Of a stretch of 64,000 bases of DNA, positions 2,446 through 63,417 are shown in pieces. Origin of the DNA: an uncultured bacterium (GTDB lineage Bacteria; Patescibacteriota; Minisyncoccia; UBA6257; 2-01-FULL-56-20); NCBI GenBank assembly GCA_963747905.1, contig CAVVHF010000018.1, positions 1,135-65,134 on the forward strand, given 5' to 3'. The position numbers were made by a program, and so were the translations under genes. The notes under the pieces were generated by a model. The model did not search any database and was not told where the DNA came from. It saw only the letters and a program-made list of their open reading frames with translations. Each line of letters begins with the position of its first letter. The stretch's first letter is position 1.

Positions 2446-4374
2446 TTATTGTGCGGTGCTCGTGGCATTCTTGCCGCCGGTCATCCTGTTGTTATAGTAC
2501 CAATCAAATACCTCCTTGGCGATAGGCACCGCGTTCAAACTGCCCTGCTTTGAGTTCTCAATCAATATAAGAAGCGCAATTTTTGGATTGGTGCATGGGA
2601 AATAGCCTACAAAGAGCGCGTTCTCCTCCTGGTTATTCTGTACCTGCGCACTGCCGGTCTTCGCGCACGCCTGCGCCGGAAGACCGTCCATCGTGTAGGC
2701 GGTACCGCGCGGGTCGGACACTGTCTCAAGCATCCCCTGCTGCACCTGCTGTATCTGCGGCAAAAGATACGTCAGATCTTCGCTCACCACCGGCGTGGAG
2801 CTGGCATTCAGGAATGGCTTGTAGATCTTTCCGCCGTTCGCGATCGCGTCGATATAGCTCAGTAGCTGGATCGGCGTGACGGCGAGCGAACCCTGCCCGA
2901 TGGAAATGTTGTACGTATCGCCGAGCGACCATGGCCGTGTGGAAACGGTGCTCCACCAAGCGGGCGTCGGCAAAAATCCTTCCGCTTCGCTCGGCAGGTC
3001 GATTCCGGTCGGCTTTCCCAACCCGAACGTCGTCCACCAGTCATATAATTTTGCCGCACCTAATCCGCTAACGCCGTAATCGACCGGATTGTTGAGCGGA
3101 GGCGTAGTGTATTCCGGTGAACCACCACCCACAATATAAAAGTAAACGTCGGACGATTGCGCGAGCGCGGACGCAAGATCGATATAGCCATGCGATTCCC
3201 AGTCCGCATACTTCGTCGGCGTGGAAGAATTGTACGGATCGGGAACCGTAAGATAACCGGGAGAATACAGTTGGCGATCCGGCGTGATGACGCCTTCCTT
3301 CAATGCCGCAACACCGTCGAGCGGCTTGATGGTGGATCCCGGCTGGTATTGCCCGGAAACAACGCGATCAAACAGTGGCTTATCGAGCGATGTAAGATAA
3401 TCCTGGATTTCCGCACTGCTACTTGCGGGATTCTCAAATGCATTGTTATCAAACCCCGGTAGATTGACAAGCGAGAGCACCGCGCCCGTCTGCGGGTTGA
3501 TGGCAAGCCCCACGCCCACCTGCCGCCCAAGCACGGCGAGCTCCTGCGCAATGCCGTCATACATCTCCGTCTGCAACCCACCGTCGATCGTCAGATGCAC
3601 CGAACCGCCGATGGTGGAAGCGGATTGTTGCTCTTCTCCCAGCACCTTCCCATACGCGTCGGTAAATTTGATATCCACGCCCGGCGTACCCTGCAATGCC
3701 GTATCATATTCTTCTTCGATGCCCATCTTACCGACAAAGTCATCCGCGGTAAGTTTTGAATTATTTGCGAGATCGGCTTGGCTCACGCGACCGACATATC
3801 CCACGACAGATGAGAATACTGTGCCATTTAGATAATATCGCTCAAAATCGCTCTGAACCTTTATTGTTGATGATGCTCCAAGCGCCTGCAGGTTCACCAG
3901 CTCCGATTGATTGAGATCCTGCGTGAGCACCACGGGCGTAGAAAAATCCTGCGCCTCGCTTTGGCCGAGTAGTGACCACACTGTGGATGATGGCACGCCG
4001 AGGATACTTTGCGCTTCGGCAATCGTAGAGCTTTGCAACGATGGATCGGAGATGAAAAGCTGCGCATCGAGCACCGCGTCGAACACCGCTTCGTTCGTGA
4101 CGAGAGGATCTCCTTCCGCGTCGTAGATAATGCCCCGCGGCGCGGGCGTCGCCTGCTCCTGGCTGGCGTTGTCGATCGCGCGCGCGGCATAATATGCTCC
4201 ACCGGTCCAGTTTAAATACACCACGCGACCGAGGACGACGAGCGCAATGCACGCAATGACCACACCAAGGATGACGACCGGGCGAGTGCCAAGCGGTACT
4301 TCCACCATATCAAGGTCGTGGCCCCAATCATCATTCAATGAATCCTCAAATGGGATCTCCGGCTTTTTTTTCAT
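2446..4374 (-). CDS. mrdA: penicillin-binding protein 2 / peptidoglycan D,D-transpeptidase
   Basis: N-terminal TM anchor; transpeptidase motifs STIKP (SxxK), SSD (SxN) and KTGSA (KTG); sits immediately downstream of mreBCD. Confidence 0.8.
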   Translation of the reverse strand: MKKKPEIPFEDSLNDDWGHDLDMVEVPLGTRPVVILGVVIACIALVVLGRVVYLNWTGGAYYAARAIDNASQEQATPAPRGIIYDAEGDPLVTNEAVFDAVLDAQLFISDPSLQSSTIAEAQSILGVPSSTVWSLLGQSEAQDFSTPVVLTQDLNQSELVNLQALGASSTIKVQSDFERYYLNGTVFSSVVGYVGRVSQADLANNSKLTADDFVGKMGIEEEYDTALQGTPGVDIKFTDAYGKVLGEEQQSASTIGGSVHLTIDGGLQTEMYDGIAQELAVLGRQVGVGLAINPQTGAVLSLVNLPGFDNNAFENPASSSAEIQDYLTSLDKPLFDRVVSGQYQPGSTIKPLDGVAALKEGVITPDRQLYSPGYLTVPDPYNSSTPTKYADWESHGYIDLASALAQSSDVYFYIVGGGSPEYTTPPLNNPVDYGVSGLGAAKLYDWWTTFGLGKPTGIDLPSEAEGFLPTPAWWSTVSTRPWSLGDTYNISIGQGSLAVTPIQLLSYIDAIANGGKIYKPFLNASSTPVVSEDLTYLLPQIQQVQQGMLETVSDPRGTAYTMDGLPAQACAKTGSAQVQNNQEENALFVGYFPCTNPKIALLILIENSKQGSLNAVPIAKEVFDWYYNNRMTGGKNATSTAQ

Positions 4375-11409: not shown

Positions 11410-11474
11410 ACGTCCTCCCTTATAAAGACAAGGTTCTAAGCGGATGGTATCACCTATACTAATTGATGTAAATC

Positions 11475-11510
11475 AAAAAGCCCCTTCCAAAAAAAGAAGG
11501 GGCTTTTTGA
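11475..11510. terminator. bidirectional rho-independent terminator (8-bp stem GCCCCTTC/GAAGGGGC, A-run upstream, T-run downstream)
   Basis: aaaaagccccttccaaaaaaagaaggggcttttt read directly; it lies immediately 3' of the KH gene on the minus strand. Confidence 0.55.
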
Positions 11511-11511
11511 T

Positions 11512-11832
11512 TTAATTCTCCGTATGCTCTTCCTCCACCTGCGGCGGATGCTCCGTGCGAGGAGCGCGGGTGCTGCCTTCCGGCTCTTCGATTTTGAGGT
11601 TCACGCGGGCATTGTTCTTGACGCCGACGATCCTCAAGAGCGAACGGATGGCCTTCGCAGTCGCGCCCTGGCGACCGACGACCTGCCCCATGTCCTGCGC
11701 ATTCACGTGAAGCGAGAGCAATACTCCCATCTCGTCGACCTTACGGTCGACCTTCACATCATCCGGATGGTCCACAAGCGACTTTACCAAGTACTCGAGG
11801 AACTCCTGATCTGCTGAAGATGTATTCGTCAT
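11512..11832 (-). CDS. KH-domain RNA-binding protein (YlqC/KhpA-like), downstream of rpsP
   Basis: GxxG KH motif (VVGRQGATAKAIRSLL); conserved rpsP-KH synteny. Confidence 0.7.
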   Translation of the reverse strand: MTNTSSADQEFLEYLVKSLVDHPDDVKVDRKVDEMGVLLSLHVNAQDMGQVVGRQGATAKAIRSLLRIVGVKNNARVNLKIEEPEGSTRAPRTEHPPQVEEEHTEN

Positions 11833-12331: not shown

Positions 12332-12372
12332 GCAAATGTACAGTTAACACCAGGAGGTAACTCTTGCGGCGG

Positions 12373-13280
12373 CAAGGGGTGACGGTGTTCACTGGAACTA
12401 TGAACAACCAACCAACACCGTACGGCAAAGAGCTCCGTCTCCGGTGGTACCGTCTTGTCGAACGGGATCATCGGATGGTCGGAGATGTTTGCCAAACTTT
12501 CGGTATTCCCAAGAAGACATATTACAAATGGTACGCGCGGGATCACGGTTACGGATCAAACGATCACCGGAGCCGGAAGCCCGACGCCAAGACCAAGCTC
12601 GTACCGGATCTCGTCATGTGGATTGTGGAACGGAAGAAGAAAACAAATTACGGGCCACTCAAGATGAAGCTCGAGATCGGGAGAGTCTTCGGACTTACGG
12701 TTTCAACGACGATCCTCTTTCGCCTCTATCGGCGCAAAGGGCTCATTCGAAAGCCCCAGCGAAAGCTCGGCTGGCATGCGCCGCTCAAGGAACCGCTCGT
12801 GATCAGAAAGCCAGGAGAAGGGGTGCAGCTTGATGTGAAATATGTGTATGAAGGAGGCACCCGCCATTACCAGTTCTCGGTCTTCGATCCATGGACGGAG
12901 CTGTATTACTTTCATGTGTTCAAGACGAGAGAAAGCAGGAATGCGGCGGCGGCGATCGAGGAAGCTGAACGATACTTCGGCTTTCCCATTATCTCCGTTC
13001 AGACCGACAACGGGAGCGAGTTCCGCGGCGACTTCCACGCATGGTGCGAAAAGCGCGGTCTTCCGCATTTCTTCATCCCCAAGAGTTCGCCCTGGTGGGA
13101 CGGCAAGGTGGAACGGGTCCATCGCACGATTGATGACGAGTATTATCAGAATCCGTTGCGGCCGTGGCACACGAGGGAGGAATGGCTCACTTACTACAAT
13201 ACCGAACGCATCCATCTCTCGATTGGAGGCATCACGCCGCGAGAAAAGGCCGATCAATATTTATCCACCGTCACCCCTTG
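12373..13280 (+). mobile_element. IS481-family insertion sequence (about 908 bp) bounded by perfect 15-bp terminal inverted repeats CAAGGGGTGACGGTG
   Basis: 15-bp perfect inverted repeats at 12373-12387 and 13266-13280 enclose a single DDE transposase ORF; no target-site duplication is seen. Confidence 0.6.
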
Positions 13281-13281
13281 A
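12400..13281 (+). CDS. IS481-family DDE transposase (N-terminal HTH plus rve integrase core)
   Basis: D(VQLDVKYV)...D(VQTDNGSEF)...E(GKVERVHRT) catalytic triad spacing; N-terminal HTH GIPKKTYYKWY; the architecture matches IS481 Tnp. Confidence 0.8.
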   Translation: MNNQPTPYGKELRLRWYRLVERDHRMVGDVCQTFGIPKKTYYKWYARDHGYGSNDHRSRKPDAKTKLVPDLVMWIVERKKKTNYGPLKMKLEIGRVFGLTVSTTILFRLYRRKGLIRKPQRKLGWHAPLKEPLVIRKPGEGVQLDVKYVYEGGTRHYQFSVFDPWTELYYFHVFKTRESRNAAAAIEEAERYFGFPIISVQTDNGSEFRGDFHAWCEKRGLPHFFIPKSSPWWDGKVERVHRTIDDEYYQNPLRPWHTREEWLTYYNTERIHLSIGGITPREKADQYLSTVTP

Positions 13282-13290
13282 TGTTCACAG

Positions 13291-13370
13291 CAAACAAAAA
13301 ATAGCCCCTCTCTTTTTTGACCGTTATGTCTGCGCACTAGGTCAAAAAAGAGAGGGGCTGTTTTTTGTTT
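13291..13370. terminator. bidirectional rho-independent terminator: perfect 20-bp stem (AGCCCCTCTCTTTTTTGACC) with a 17-nt loop, A-run before and T-run after
   Basis: Read directly from the sequence; serves the transposase on the plus strand and the 13369..14052 gene on the minus strand. Confidence 0.55.
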
Positions 13371-14052
13371 AATGCGTCTCCGTCCTATCTTTCAACTTGT
13401 TCAATAAGTGCGCTGCATAGTCCTTGCCGCCAAGACCGAAGGCCAAGCCGCCGGCGAGCGCGAACATCGCAATGAATCCAGTCACGATCGTCTGGATGAT
13501 CGTCGCCGCAATATTCAGCTGCGTGAGCGCGGTCAACAATCCGAACACGGCAATCGTCCAATACGTGACCGTGCCGAGGAACGGTCCCGAGTGCAGCTTC
13601 GCACTCATCACCGAGGCCGTCACGAGCCTGCGCAGGAAATGCGCGAGCACGAGCGCCGCGAGCATGATGAGCACCGCTGCGATCACGTTCGGCAGATAAT
13701 TCAGGATCGCCGTCAGAAATTCCGACAACGCATACAACTGCAAACTATCCGCGATTGCCACGAAGAACGCAACGATGATGAACCAATATACGAGCTTGCC
13801 GAAAAAGTATGCCGCGCGCAACTTGAGCCCGGCGCGCTCGAAGATCGGCTTCAACCCGATCTTCTCAAGGAATACATCAAGACGGATCCCTTCGAGGATC
13901 TTCTCCACAAGTGCGCCTAACCCCGCCGCCACAATCAAGCCGATGATCAGCACCACGAGTGCACCGACGATATTCGGCAAGTAATTGATAACTCCCCACC
14001 AAAGGTTTTGGAGTGAACCTACCACCACATCCGTCCAACTTTGTACAACCAT
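13369..14052 (-). CDS. membrane protein with a duplicated conserved-TM-helix repeat (MscS-associated TM_helix-like)
   Basis: Internal repeat YLPNIVGALVVLIIG / YLPNVIAAVLIMLAA; 6 predicted TM segments. Confidence 0.45.
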   Translation of the reverse strand: MVVQSWTDVVVGSLQNLWWGVINYLPNIVGALVVLIIGLIVAAGLGALVEKILEGIRLDVFLEKIGLKPIFERAGLKLRAAYFFGKLVYWFIIVAFFVAIADSLQLYALSEFLTAILNYLPNVIAAVLIMLAALVLAHFLRRLVTASVMSAKLHSGPFLGTVTYWTIAVFGLLTALTQLNIAATIIQTIVTGFIAMFALAGGLAFGLGGKDYAAHLLNKLKDRTETH

Positions 14053-14196: not shown

Positions 14197-14267
14197 GGGC
14201 CCATAGTAAAGTGGTATTACGCGGCATTCGCATTGCTGAGGCGGGAGTCCGATTCTCCCTGGGTCCA
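14197..14267 (+). tRNA. tRNA-Ala (anticodon CGC), atypical: 7-nt D-loop, 4-nt variable loop, T-loop TCCGATT, no encoded CCA
   Basis: Hand-folded cloverleaf: 7-bp acceptor with G3:U70 (the alanine identity pair), D-stem GTAA/TTAC, anticodon stem CGGCA/TGCTG, loop TTCGCAT, T-stem GGGAG/CTCCC, discriminator A. Confidence 0.5.
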
Positions 14268-14478
14268 CACCATCATTTTTTGCGTTTCGGCGCATTTCAA
14301 CACGGCCCATGGAAAATGGGTTTATGTACCGTCATTGTCCATAATACTGCTGGCATAATGCTTCGCTAGATGGCACCAATTGCTGCTTTAGGCAACATTT
14401 TGAGTGTTACCCGTACTTTGCCGGGATAGTGCCTCCGACCTTTGACTTCCTTTTATAGCAGAGTAGGATTCAAGACAA

Positions 14479-24930: not shown

Positions 24931-24951
24931 AAAAAATATTGTCGCACCAAT

Positions 24952-25027
24952 CCGACAGAAAAACAAACAGCCGTTCCGCTGAATTATTCTTATCACAAGG
25001 CGGAACGGCTGTTTGTTTTTCTGTCGG
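24952..25027. repeat. perfect 28-bp stem hairpin abutting the 3' end of tRNA-Lys; its loop contains GAATTATTCTTATCAC, the same 16-nt loop as the 63273..63318 hairpin
   Basis: CCGACAGAAAAACAAACAGCCGTTCCGC / GCGGAACGGCTGTTTGTTTTTCTGTCGG with a 20-nt loop, read directly. Confidence 0.5.
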
Positions 25028-25101
25028 TGCCCCCACCAGGATTTGAACCTGGGACCATCTCCTTAAAAGGGAGCTGCTCTACCAGACTGAGCTATAGGGG
25101 C
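25028..25101 (-). tRNA. tRNA-Lys (anticodon UUU); CCA not encoded
   Basis: Hand-folded cloverleaf: acceptor GCCCCTA/TGGGGGC, D-arm GCTCAGTCTGGTAGAGC, anticodon loop CTTTTAA, T-arm CCAGGTTCAAATCCTGG. Confidence 0.8.
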
Positions 25102-62154: not shown

Positions 62155-62205
62155 ACCACTATTATATATAATACATTCTTTTAGATTCTCACTCGTCCCT
62201 ATCTG

Positions 62206-62278
62206 AGCCACCTCCCGGATTCGAACCGGGGACCTTTGCTTTACGAAAGCACTGCTCTACCAACTGAGCTAAGGTGGC
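62206..62278 (-). tRNA. tRNA-Thr (anticodon CGU)
   Basis: Hand-folded cloverleaf: acceptor GCCACCT/AGGTGGC, D-arm GCTCAGTTGGTAGAGC, anticodon loop TTCGTAA, T-arm CCCGGTTCGAATCCGGG. Confidence 0.8.
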
Positions 62279-62393: not shown

Positions 62394-63242
62394 CTATTCC
62401 GGAGTGGTAAGCCAGCGCCACAGGCGCATATACCACGTCAGCTTTTCTTTTGCCGTTCCTTTACGCCGGGTACCTGCCTGAGAAATGATTTTTTTGATCT
62501 TGGGCATCGCGAGCGTCGCCGCGCGGTAACCTTCTTTTATAAGGGGACCGACTTTCCCCCAGTCGGAAGACGTATAGGGTTCAAGGTGGGGTTCGATAAT
62601 AATGTCGGCCAGCTCTCTGTGTATGATACTCTGGCGAAACACCATGATATCCACCGAATTCATCATTACGCCAATAATGCTTTTGGGTCTTTTATAACTA
62701 CGCCATCGGGCGAGGTTCACGCCGATCTTCACGTCGGCATGCAAATCGGCCAGCTCCTTAATCGGAAGATTTTCCACAAGCCCCCCGTCCACGAGGAGAC
62801 GGCCATCTTTTGCGATCGGCGCGAAGAGGCCTGGGATGGCGGTGCTTGCGCGTACGGCATCGACAACGCTTCCCGACCGAAACACTACTTTTTCTCCCGT
62901 GCTGATATCGGTCGCGACAATCGCAAGGGGAATCTTTGCATCTTCGATATTCGCATCATGTCCGATGAGTTTTATAAGGAGGTCACCGACGATCTGATTT
63001 GTCGCGATGCCCATAGCCGAACGGAAGAATCTGGAGAATTTATGCCACGAGAGATTTTCTGCGGCCTTTGCCACATCACTCATTGGTACTCCAAACGCAT
63101 AGCATGCGGCAATGACGGATCCCGCGCTCGTTCCCGAAATACAATCAATGGCTATATCATGATCTTCGAATGACTGAATGACGCCGATATTGGCAATACC
63201 GAGTGCGCTGCCGCCGGAAAGGGCAACGCCGATTTTCTTCAT
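62394..63242 (-). CDS. patatin-like phospholipase
   Basis: Oxyanion GGSALG, nucleophile elbow GTSAGS, and the catalytic Asp in DGG. Confidence 0.8.
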   Translation of the reverse strand: MKKIGVALSGGSALGIANIGVIQSFEDHDIAIDCISGTSAGSVIAACYAFGVPMSDVAKAAENLSWHKFSRFFRSAMGIATNQIVGDLLIKLIGHDANIEDAKIPLAIVATDISTGEKVVFRSGSVVDAVRASTAIPGLFAPIAKDGRLLVDGGLVENLPIKELADLHADVKIGVNLARWRSYKRPKSIIGVMMNSVDIMVFRQSIIHRELADIIIEPHLEPYTSSDWGKVGPLIKEGYRAATLAMPKIKKIISQAGTRRKGTAKEKLTWYMRLWRWLTTPE

Positions 63243-63272
63243 ATTTTTATTGTACGCCTACTTACAACAAAA

Positions 63273-63318
63273 TGTCCCTTTCTGGCGAATTATTCTTATC
63301 ACGAGCCAGAAAGGAACA
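63273..63318. repeat. 14-bp stem hairpin 12 nt downstream of tRNA-Ser whose loop carries GAATTATTCTTATCAC, identical to the loop of the hairpin after tRNA-Lys; probably also the tRNA-Ser terminator
   Basis: TGTCCCTTTCTGGC / GCCAGAAAGGAACA with an 18-nt loop, read directly. Confidence 0.5.
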
Positions 63319-63330
63319 TTTTTGTCGTTG

Positions 63331-63417
63331 CGGAGAGAGTGGGATTCGAACCCACGGTACCCTTTCGAGTACACCGCATTTCGAGTGCGGCGCCTTCGAC
63401 CACTCAGCCATCTCTCC
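63331..63417 (-). tRNA. tRNA-Ser (anticodon CGA) with a long variable arm
   Basis: Acceptor GGAGAGA/TCTCTCC, D-arm GCTGAGTGGTCGAAGGC, anticodon loop CTCGAAA, long variable arm, T-arm GTGGGTTCGAATCCCAC. Confidence 0.8.

What the first reader, a model, noticed from the sequence alone, without database searches (positions are those of the whole stretch)
63273..63318. Second copy of the conserved-loop hairpin, downstream of tRNA-Ser
A 14-bp stem (one mismatch) with an 18-nt loop that carries the same GAATTATTCTTATCAC core as the tRNA-Lys hairpin. On the tRNA strand it is followed by UUUUGUUG, so it probably also acts as the tRNA-Ser terminator. Listed separately so that the two loci can be tested independently.
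Basis: seen in the sequence. Interest (0 to 1): 0.5.

Follow-up and report, generated by a model that had tools for sequence, protein, structure and literature searches.

The report
Capped terminator hairpin after tRNA-Ser
The hairpin is real: it is one of at least 81 copies of an undescribed family of long terminator-like hairpins in tiny-genome (CPR/Minisyncoccia) bacteria that share an invariant 18-base structured cap, sit mostly right after tRNA genes, and have an unknown cap function.

Summary
The hairpin spans window 63264-63328 on the minus strand: 23 pairs and an 18-nt cap, starting 1-2 nt after tRNA-Ser(CGA). Its cap, UCGUGAUAAGAAUAAUUC, matches the tRNA-Lys hairpin at 24952-25027.

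It is not a two-copy curiosity. Exact-pattern scans found 81 distinct hairpins with this cap in three Patescibacteria/Minisyncoccia MAGs and in peat or soil metagenomes.
- Stems are locus-specific and about 96% paired, with very strong covariation.
- 46 of the 81 lie 0-12 nt after a tRNA of 22 anticodon types, and two follow tmRNA.
- Among tRNAs in the held loci, cap orientation is 48 sense to 3 antisense.
- Most copies have an A-tract, a roughly 17-bp stem and a U-tract, the shape of a bidirectional intrinsic terminator.

The "loop" is a small structure: G.U, U-A, G.A, A-U, U-A and an AAGA tetraloop. A variant cap with two compensatory pair changes and related cap families support this fold.

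Orthologous loci found through the neighbouring patatin gene gave a mixed result. One keeps the cap 18/18 on a diverged stem. One has the compensated variant. Two have lost the hairpin.

Best reading: a terminator and trailer hairpin with a factor-recognised cap. It is possibly also a dispersing cassette, because about 20% of tRNA-linked copies carry a 105-nt structured element plus a duplicated tRNA 3' end. Rfam and the literature searches returned nothing.

The parts
63264..63328 (-). Full hairpin 3' of tRNA-Ser: 23 pairs with one bulge around an 18-nt cap.
   Evidence: RNA fold of 63255-63332 on the minus strand: -31.6 kcal/mol, z = -5.3. Inverted repeat I5, 18-nt arms, 94% complementary.
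63287..63304 (-). Conserved cap UCGUGAUAAGAAUAAUUC, read on the tRNA strand. Proposed fold: G.U, U-A, G.A, A-U, U-A closed by an AAGA tetraloop, above a 2x2 pyrimidine internal loop.
   Evidence: Identical in 81 distinct hairpins. Variant V, UCGUGCGAAGACGAAUUC, changes two pairs compensatorily. Mini-helix covariation across 13 cap variants: 86.5% paired against 60.1% in shuffles, 0/500.
63330..63417 (-). tRNA-Ser(CGA). CCA is not encoded; the 3' flank reads ...CUCCG C AACGAC.
   Evidence: ARAGORN, Rfam tRNA at 60.2 bits, sequence.
63249..63278 (-). Promoter-like site for the downstream patatin gene (GGGACA-18 nt-TACAAT). Its -35 lies inside the 3' arm of the hairpin.
   Evidence: Consensus scan only. 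The TACAAT box and its spacing to the ATG are conserved in L263-L266.
62394..63242 (-). Downstream gene, a patatin-like phospholipase. It was used to fetch orthologous loci.
   Evidence: Pfam PF01734, E = 1.2e-28. Homologues.
24952..25027 (-). Twin hairpin 3' of tRNA-Lys(UUU): 28-bp perfect arms around a 20-nt apex with the same 16-nt core (cap variant UUGUGAUAAGAAUAAUUC).
   Evidence: -52.9 kcal/mol, z = -10.4; I2.
25026..25101 (-). tRNA-Lys(UUU), with its own promoter-like site TTGAAA-17-TACTAT at 25141-25113.
13292..13370 (.). Related long hairpin: 31-nt arms with a 17-nt cap GTTATGTCTGCGCACTA of the sister cap family C'. It lies between convergent genes.
   Evidence: (I1).

Best explanation
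What it is. The feature is the apex of a 65-nt hairpin that is transcribed with tRNA-Ser(CGA) as its 3' trailer. It belongs to a lineage-specific family of capped long-stem terminator hairpins in Minisyncoccia/Patescibacteria (CPR) bacteria.

Anatomy of each copy:
- an A-rich tract;
- a locus-specific stem of about 17 bp;
- a semi-conserved 9-bp top, CUUUYYGSC/GSCRRAAAG;
- the invariant 18-nt cap;
- a mirrored U-rich tract.

Proposed mechanism:
1. (Inferred) RNA polymerase coming from the tRNA promoter terminates factor-independently at the hairpin and U-tract. This ends a one-gene tRNA transcript and insulates the promoter of the next gene, which overlaps the 3' arm.
2. (Inferred) Because the stem is almost purely Watson-Crick and has an A-tract on the other side, the same DNA also stops transcription arriving on the opposite strand.
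3. (Inferred) The cap is a small folded module read on the tRNA strand by a trans-acting factor, most likely a protein. That factor would act on the trailer (endonucleolytic release or 3'-end protection before RNase Z-type trimming, since CCA is not encoded) or help copy the element to new sites.

Shown here: the hairpin, its covariation, its position and orientation relative to tRNAs, the U and A tracts, the constraint on the cap, and the mini-helix in the cap.

Inferred only: termination, the existence of the factor, and what it does.
For: Structure:
- Window folds have z = -5.3 and -10.4.
- In 69 distinct copies, 22 stem pairs are 96.4% paired against 59.8% in shuffles and 44-52% in slid registers. 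There are 581 double-change cells against 169, with 0/500 shuffles reaching that.

Terminator shape:
- 71 of 79 copies have at least 6 of 8 T starting about 17 nt after the cap.
- 66 of 78 have the mirrored A-tract.
- Plain small-loop terminators in the same genomes use the same AAAAAGCCCC...GGGGCTTTTT frame.

Position:
- 46 of 81 copies are 0-12 nt after a tRNA, covering 22 anticodon types, and two follow tmRNA.
- The rest lie mostly after ORF 3' ends or between convergent ORFs.
- Promoter-like sites flank the tRNA-Lys unit and follow the Ser hairpin.

Strand-specific cap: 48 sense against 3 antisense among tRNAs in the held loci.

Cap constraint without ascertainment bias: L264 was fetched through the patatin protein (88% aa identity). 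It has the cap 18/18 identical, while the lower stem carries substitutions and an indel.

Cap fold: variant V (L265, L185) changes A-U to C-G and U-A to G-C. The 13-variant alignment gives 0/500 shuffles.

In the 658 kb of held CPR loci, only one single-base variant of the cap was seen, against 80 exact copies.
Against: - No expression or 3'-end data exist, so termination is inferred from shape only.
- The simple terminator scan does not call the site because the loop exceeds 8 nt.
- G.U pairs are rare, about 1.6% of stem cells (my tally of the pair types). G.T mismatches (14) are not commoner than A.C mismatches (26) on the tRNA strand. The stem therefore gives no signal for RNA on one strand; this fits bidirectional use or a DNA-level palindrome equally well.
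- The hairpin is lost in close relatives (L263, L266). In L271 the equivalent hairpin carries a diverged cap in inverted orientation. It is therefore not essential, and the orientation rule is not absolute.
- No partner factor was identified.
- The homology between cap family A and family C' used for the mini-helix test is my own alignment.
Confidence: 0.55

Rival explanations
1. The hairpin is mainly a selfish, dispersing DNA element: a terminator cassette that is copied to new sites, especially the 3' end of tRNA genes. On this view the invariant cap is the recognition site of the enzyme that moves it, or is kept uniform by gene conversion. Terminator activity is a by-product that makes insertions tolerable. 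Solo copies such as the two in the window would be what remains after loss of the accompanying 105-nt X element and the duplicated tRNA end. This explanation is not exclusive of the best explanation.
For: - At least 8 copies occur in one MAG, and 3 copies on a 2.5-kb contig.
- Nearly identical whole stems (one difference over about 25 nt, from the listing) occur behind different tRNAs of one genome: L052 Ser-cga and L155 Lys-ctt. The same stem subfamily occurs behind Val, Tyr, Leu and Arg tRNAs.
- All ten X occurrences found sit directly behind an A or V hairpin; the upstream tRNA is visible in most of them. X is followed by a direct repeat of the last 13-21 nt of that tRNA and preceded by an inverted copy of its T-arm.
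- In L216 the duplicated tRNA end is followed by a second, older-looking capped hairpin, as expected if hairpin plus X was inserted at the tRNA end.
- Presence, absence and cap swaps occur among relatives at 73-92% aa identity.
- Stems are near-perfect palindromes with no G.U excess.
Against: - No transposase, integrase or reverse transcriptase is consistently adjacent.
- The window copies have no direct repeat of the tRNA end in the expected position. Within 4 kb, none was found for Lys and only a distant 11-nt T-loop match for Ser.
- Orthologous Val-cac and Ser-cga copies show gradual, compensated stem divergence, as in vertical descent under selection.
- The compensatory change in the cap (V) points to selection on a folded single strand.
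- Neither the cap nor X occurs in viral contigs.
Confidence: 0.3
2. The processed tRNA trailer is a trans-acting small RNA. The stable hairpin presents the A/U-rich cap as a seed or kissing loop that pairs with target RNAs, or acts as a sponge, in the manner of the E. coli leuZ 3' external transcribed spacer (comparison from my own knowledge).
For: An invariant, exposed, A-rich apex sits on a very stable stem, made in many copies from strongly transcribed tRNA units, with strand-specific orientation.
Against: - No complementary site was found. The 16-mer and its complement occur only in the two caps, even allowing 3 mismatches in the 64-kb window.
- The cap appears folded rather than open.
- Several unrelated cap families coexist in the same genomes.
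Confidence: 0.07
3. The functional form is DNA. An extruded cruciform or single-stranded hairpin would have its cap bound or nicked by a DNA enzyme (a HUH nuclease, a recombinase or a replication protein), as at rolling-circle origins where a conserved loop sits on a variable stem (comparison from my own knowledge).
For: Near-perfect Watson-Crick palindromes, a conserved apex on variable arms, and no strand signal from G.U pairs.
Against: - Copies occur only at gene 3' ends, with U and A tracts.
- The strong orientation bias is relative to the transcribed tRNA.
- No Rep or Y1 gene was seen next to copies.
- A DDE (rve) transposase abuts only the sister-family hairpin at 13292-13370.
Confidence: 0.06
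4. It is an ordinary terminator, and the shared loop only reflects a recent duplication between the two window loci.
For: Only two copies occur in the window, and a 16-mer repeat alone is weak evidence.
Against: There are 81 distinct copies with unrelated stems in several genomes and many metagenomes, and the cap is conserved at an orthologous locus fetched independently.
Confidence: 0.02

Closest known systems
Bidirectional Rho-independent (intrinsic) terminators, including the extra-long-stem terminators reported to resist processive antitermination (PMC10325885; title and abstract seen)
   Same: A-tract, G+C-containing stem and U-tract; placed at the 3' ends of tRNA, tmRNA and protein genes and between convergent genes; very long, very stable stems.
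   Different: An 18-nt sequence-invariant, folded, orientation-specific apex replaces the usual 3-8-nt loop. The 9 bp beneath it are semi-conserved. Several discrete cap families coexist in the same genomes.
REP/BIME and similar dispersed extragenic palindromes (from my own knowledge)
   Same: Many copies per genome, intergenic at gene 3' ends, can act as terminators or mRNA stabilisers, and show gain and loss between relatives.
   Different: In REPs the palindrome arms are the conserved part and a RAYT transposase is the partner. Here the arms are locus-specific and only the apex is conserved, and no RAYT was looked for or seen.
Hairpins whose apical loop is the recognition determinant for a double-strand RNA enzyme, such as AGNN-capped substrates of yeast RNase III Rnt1p (from my own knowledge)
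   Same: A long perfect duplex capped by a conserved small loop (AAGA, CAGA or AGGA here) that could set a measuring point for cleavage in the stem.
   Different: That system is eukaryotic. No evidence for such an enzyme or cleavage exists here. This is an analogy only.
Stem-loop TIGR arrays (tigRNA) of Patescibacteria (bioRxiv 10.64898/2026.09.09.750476; PMC12045711)
   Same: Palindromic stems flanking a conserved or structured apex, in CPR bacteria.
   Different: TIGR units are tandem arrays with box C/D motifs and two variable spacers next to a Tas gene. These hairpins are solitary, have an invariant apex, lack CUGA (box D), and sit behind tRNAs.
tRNA-gene integration scars: attL/attR pairs with a displaced tRNA 3' fragment (general principle; PMC9897764 listed)
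   Same: In about 20% of tRNA-linked copies, a direct repeat of the tRNA T-loop-to-3'-end lies about 110 nt beyond the hairpin.
   Different: The insert is only about 200 nt and has no integrase. The same insert type sits at seven or more different tRNAs, each with its own matching repeat plus an inverted T-arm copy. The window copies have none of this.

Membership tests
Intrinsic (Rho-independent) terminator | Stable hairpin directly at the 3' end of a transcription unit | tested here: met
   Hairpin 63264-63328 starts 1-2 nt after tRNA-Ser; z = -5.3. The family shows the same placement.
Intrinsic (Rho-independent) terminator | U-rich tract at the 3' foot of the stem | tested here: met
   UUUUGUUGU in the window copy. 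71 of 79 family members have at least 6 of 8 T about 17 nt after the cap. The tract pairs with an upstream A-tract, as in bidirectional terminators.
Intrinsic (Rho-independent) terminator | Short loop of 3-8 nt | tested here: not met
   The apex is 18 nt, and the consensus scan finds no terminator at the site. If the cap mini-helix forms, the terminal loop is 4 nt.
Intrinsic (Rho-independent) terminator | Transcripts end there | not testable with these tools
   No transcript data are available.
Any Rfam 15 family | Covariance-model score at or above the gathering threshold | tested here: not met
   Only tRNAs reach threshold in the window. The hairpin gives sub-threshold miRNA-precursor-type hits (26.8 bits against a threshold of 44). 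Nothing was found for L046, L061, L116, L141 or the L129 composite.
REP/BIME-type extragenic palindromes | Dispersed multicopy intergenic palindromes | tested here: met
   81 distinct copies, with at least 8 in one MAG.
REP/BIME-type extragenic palindromes | Conserved arm sequence shared by copies | tested here: not met
   The arms vary at 21 of 22 pairs. Only the cap and the top 9 bp are conserved.
REP/BIME-type extragenic palindromes | Cognate RAYT (Y1 transposase) in the genome | not tested
   Whole genomes were not available, and only seven window proteins were scanned.
MITE or integrative cassette at tRNA genes | Direct repeat of the target flanking the insert | tested here: inconclusive
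   Present (13-21 nt) in 8 of 46 tRNA-linked copies, always together with element X. Absent at the two window copies: within 4 kb, none for Lys and only a distant 11-nt T-loop match for Ser.
Stem-loop TIGR / box C/D guide RNA | Tandem array, box C (RUGAUGA) and box D (CUGA), variable spacers | tested here: not met
   Copies are solitary and the apex is invariant. GUGAUAA resembles box C but no CUGA is present.
DNA uptake sequence | Hundreds to thousands of copies in both orientations, including inside genes | tested here: not met
   Two copies in 64 kb, found only in hairpin apices, with biased orientation.

The most novel reading that the evidence does not exclude
The capped hairpin is the leading end of a new kind of miniature insertion cassette that targets the 3' end of tRNA genes in CPR bacteria. 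The cassette consists of the hairpin plus a roughly 105-nt three-way-junction element, X. On insertion it duplicates the tRNA segment from the T-loop to the 3' end (13-21 nt) and creates an inverted copy of the T-arm. It brings its own terminator, so the tRNA stays functional. The cap is the handle recognised by the still unknown machinery. Solo hairpins such as the two in this window would be the long-lived remnants.
Probability: 0.2. Interest if true: 0.8.

Novelty: new variant of a known kind. Interest (0 to 1): 0.6.

Why it matters
CPR/Patescibacteria make up a large share of bacterial diversity, are almost uncultured, and their RNA biology is essentially unknown. This work defines a sequence-exact, easily searchable RNA/DNA element that marks the ends of tRNA, tmRNA and other transcription units in one lineage.

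The element comes in discrete cap families, and its cap is under strong constraint. That implies an unidentified partner: a processing enzyme, a termination or stability factor, or a mobility enzyme. The partner could now be sought by phyletic profiling or by pull-down.

If the composite form (hairpin, element X and a duplicated tRNA end) is a mobile cassette, it would be a new mode of tRNA-gene targeting.

Practically, the family offers a ready-made set of very strong natural bidirectional terminators. It also provides a marker for annotating tRNA transcription units in Minisyncoccia MAGs.

Tried and rejected
- Promoter inside the loop. The cap has -10-like AATAAT or TAAGAAT, but no -35 at a fixed distance in the two window copies. 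The scan instead places the downstream promoter below the cap. Rejected.
- G.U against A.C asymmetry, to identify the transcribed strand of the stem. 14 G.T against 26 A.C on the tRNA strand. Uninformative. The single G.U in the window copy should not be over-read.
- K-turn or box C/D reading of GUGAU. No GA or CUGA partner on the 3' side (by inspection). Rejected.
- Complementarity to the 16S 3' tail. Only GUGAU matches (by inspection). Rejected.
- DNA uptake sequence, TIGR array and known Rfam family. Rejected; see the membership table.
- Phage origin. 43 viral hits to the 16-mer were all non-hairpin chance matches, and the X core had 0 viral hits.
- Swapping of caps on otherwise identical stems. 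The shared 12-mers between hairpins of different cap families were only the generic CCCTCTCTTTT-type tract. There is no clear case of the same stem carrying a different cap, apart from one SNP variant (L177 against L052).
- Reading element X as an odd tRNA, SRP RNA or tmRNA piece. ARAGORN and Rfam are silent. Its three-way junction covaries on either strand. It remains unexplained.
- Lys-locus orthologues. Only one of the four fetched loci was syntenic.
- Literature searches by topic and by the literal sequence found nothing describing the element.

Full report
1. The observation

The reported sequence is present. Window 63273-63286 pairs with 63305-63318 around an 18-nt loop at 63287-63304. 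The hairpin is larger than reported. The repeat finder gives 18-nt arms, 63269-63286 and 63305-63322. The minus-strand RNA fold pairs 23 positions over 63264-63328, at -31.6 kcal/mol against -14.2 +/- 3.3 for shuffles.

tRNA-Ser(cga) lies at 63330-63417 on the minus strand, so the hairpin starts 1-2 nt after the tRNA. CCA is not encoded.

The 16-mer GAATTATTCTTATCAC occurs exactly twice in the window. The second copy is in the apex of a hairpin with 28-bp perfect arms at 24952-25027, which abuts tRNA-Lys(ttt). The two stems share no sequence.

2. It is a large family

Of 120 hits, 14 were embedded in 13-35-bp hairpins. All 14 lie in three Patescibacteria MAGs: OY970354.1 (829 kb), a MAG labelled Saccharibacteria (8 copies), and a Minisyncoccia MAG from SPRUCE peat. 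The other 106 hits, and all 43 hits in viral contigs, had no hairpin. These serve as the chance control.

A 19-mer scan of metagenome contigs returned 100 loci, mostly from a few series of JGI peat or wetland samples.

Together these give 81 distinct hairpins with stems of at least 18 pairs. The ungapped stem length has a median of 27 and a maximum of 36. Homologues of neighbouring proteins are named Minisyncoccia or Paceibacterota, which places the window in that CPR lineage.

3. Anatomy

Read on the tRNA strand, the consensus is:
- an A-tract;
- about 8 variable pairs;
- C-UUU-YY-G-S-C;
- the cap UCGUGAUAAGAAUAAUUC;
- G-S-C-RR-AAA-G;
- the variable pairs again;
- a U-tract.

In 69 distinct copies, the 22 pairs next to the cap are 96.4% paired, against 59.8% in shuffles and 44-52% in slid registers. 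There are 581 double-change cells against 169, with 0/500 shuffles reaching that.

G.U pairs are rare. G.T mismatches (14) are not commoner than A.C (26) on the tRNA strand, so the stem is constrained equally on both strands.

71 of 79 copies have at least 6 T in 8 nt starting about 17 nt after the cap, and 66 of 78 have the mirrored A-tract. This is the shape of a bidirectional intrinsic terminator. Ordinary small-loop terminators in the same contigs use the same frame.

4. Context

46 of 81 copies lie 0-12 nt after a tRNA, covering 22 anticodon types, and two follow tmRNA. The remainder are mostly after ORF ends or between convergent ORFs.

Of 142 tRNAs in the held loci:
- 48 are followed by the hairpin with the cap in the same sense;
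- 3 have it in antisense;
- 8 are followed by hairpins of other cap families;
- 82 have none.

In the window, tRNA-Lys has its own promoter-like site at 25141-25113. A promoter-like site for the patatin gene (GGGACA-18-TACAAT) overlaps the 3' arm of the Ser hairpin. This fits a one-gene tRNA unit closed by the hairpin.

5. The cap is folded and constrained

Orthologous loci were fetched through the patatin protein, so they were found independently of the cap.
- L264 (88% aa identity) has tRNA-Ser(cga) plus the hairpin. The cap is 18/18 identical, while the lower stem has substitutions and an indel.
- L265 (83%) has the cap UCGUGCGAAGACGAAUUC. Its four differences convert two pairs (A-U to C-G and U-A to G-C) in a mini-helix U-A, G.A, N-N', N-N' closed by AAGA.
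- L263 (89%) keeps only fragments of the arms.
- L266 (73%) keeps only the A-tract.

The same variant cap recurs in L185.

Other long hairpins in these contigs carry other recurrent apices. One of them, family C/C', includes window 13292-13370. It has the same architecture: U-N-S, a 4-bp helix, an NRGA-type loop, then AC. An alignment of 13 cap variants gives 86.5% pairing in the mini-helix against 60.1% in shuffles, and 13 double changes against 5.1, with 0/500. That alignment is hand-made, so it counts as moderate evidence.

Across 658 kb of held CPR sequence, only one single-base variant of cap A was seen beside 80 exact copies.

6. Signs of dispersal

Whole stems recur behind different tRNAs. 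L052 (Ser-cga) and L155 (Lys-ctt), from one MAG, differ at one position. Relatives of that stem occur behind Val, Tyr, Leu and Arg tRNAs.

In 10 loci the hairpin is followed by a conserved element of about 105 nt, called X here.
- RNAalifold predicts a three-way junction with 15 covarying pairs.
- X begins with an exact inverted copy of the adjacent tRNA's T-loop and T-stem 3' strand.
- X ends with a direct repeat of that tRNA's last 13-21 nt.
- X was never seen without the hairpin.

In L216 the repeat is followed by a second capped hairpin with the cap UCAUGAUAGGAAUAAUGA.

A second X type occurs in L059 and L271. At L271, the only syntenic orthologue of the Lys locus (92% aa identity), the hairpin has a 33-bp stem and a diverged cap in inverted orientation.

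The window copies have neither X nor a tRNA-end repeat in the expected position.

7. Interpretation

The best-supported function is a strong bidirectional terminator and trailer hairpin for tRNA and other units. Its cap would be recognised by an unknown factor on the tRNA-strand RNA.

The main rival, which can coexist with this, is that the hairpin is a dispersing cassette and the cap is its mobility handle.

Three things argue for selection on a transcribed, folded cap:
- the orientation bias;
- the compensatory cap variant;
- conservation of the cap at an independently retrieved orthologue.

Three things argue for a DNA-level repeat dynamic:
- the purely Watson-Crick stems;
- copy turnover among relatives;
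- the composite units.

No data here can show termination or identify the factor.

8. Comparison with known elements

Rfam 15 has no matching family. Full-text searches by topic and by the literal sequence found no description.

The nearest known kinds are long-stem bidirectional terminators and REP-like extragenic palindromes. This element differs from both: the conserved, folded, orientation-specific part is the apex, and the arms are free to vary.

It is not a TIGR stem-loop array. The copies are solitary, the apex is invariant, and there is no box D.

9. Verdict

This is a real element, not a chance match, and apparently undescribed. Its basic job (terminator) is ordinary. The unusual parts are the invariant structured cap, the tRNA linkage and the associated composite units. 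I score interest at 0.6 and rate novelty as a new variant of a known kind.

Noticed in passing
L129 about 2520-2650 (minus strand); also L061/L257, L140, L165, L178 (two copies), L189, L227, L265 2330-2470: A conserved structured element of about 105 nt, called X here, always lies directly after an A or V capped hairpin behind a tRNA. It forms a three-way junction with 15 covarying pairs. Its 5' end is an inverted copy of the neighbouring tRNA's T-arm, and its 3' end is a direct repeat of that tRNA's last 13-21 nt. ARAGORN and Rfam give no match, and the core is absent from viral contigs.
   Followed up: partly
L059 about 1810-1940; L271 1-120: A second, unrelated-looking element (X2) has the same flank logic: an anti-T-loop at its 5' end and a degenerate tRNA 3' fragment at its 3' end. 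It sits behind tRNA-Arg(tcg), and at the Lys locus of a 92% relative.
   Followed up: no
L216 473-536: After the duplicated tRNA-Lys(ctt) 3' end lies a second long hairpin. Its cap, TCATGATAGGAATAATGA, is a fully paired version of cap A with an AGGA loop. The layout is tRNA, hairpin, X, tRNA fragment, hairpin.
   Followed up: partly
L062 1963-2045, L169 456-514, L210 509-597, L214 699-779, L224 1889-1973, L237 92-148, L255 1587-1675, and others: Other recurrent apices sit on 12-41-bp perfect stems in the same genomes. Examples are AAATGCCACGTAGGAACGTGA (at least 7 copies, with an internal 5-bp helix), GAAC..TCATCT....GGA, GAGCGAGTG...CTTAC...GGAGCGA, CTGGAAAGTGCGCGAAGTGGACGATAAT and GAGCTTATGTTGATATCAAATCCCACGG. 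The capped-terminator phenomenon is broader than cap A.
   Followed up: partly
window 13292-13370, with 12364-13281 (+) and 13369-14052 (-): A hairpin with 31-nt arms and a 17-nt cap of the sister family lies between an rve-type (DDE integrase core) transposase gene and a convergent mechanosensitive-channel gene. The transposase stop is 11 nt from the hairpin.
   Followed up: partly
window 11469-11514: A plain terminator-like hairpin, 19 bp perfect with an 8-nt loop, has the same AAAAAGCCCC/GGGGCTTTTT frame as the capped ones.
   Followed up: no
L168 (tmRNA 1015-1329 complement; cap 968-986) and L244 (tmRNA 3626-3938; cap from about 3970): The cap-A hairpin also follows tmRNA genes directly, in the sense orientation.
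   Followed up: partly
L112 3486-4430 (minus strand); same arrangement in L194 and L242: A Xer-like tyrosine recombinase gene (Phage_integrase plus SAM_1 domains) converges on the capped hairpin behind tRNA-Leu(tag).
   Followed up: partly
L265 2150-2500: In this 83% relative, ARAGORN finds no intact tRNA-Ser(cga) upstream of the hairpin, although the tRNA 3' fragment after X is perfect. The tRNA may have moved or decayed.
   Followed up: no
window 63243-63260 and 24931-24950 (minus strand): Both genes downstream of the hairpins have a -10-like ACAAT box only 8-10 nt before the ATG, conserved in relatives. This suggests very short or absent 5' leaders.
   Followed up: no
window 62205-62278 (tRNA-Thr) and 14197-14268 (tRNA-Ala): The other two tRNAs of the window have no capped hairpin downstream, so only a subset of tRNA units carries it.
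   Followed up: partly
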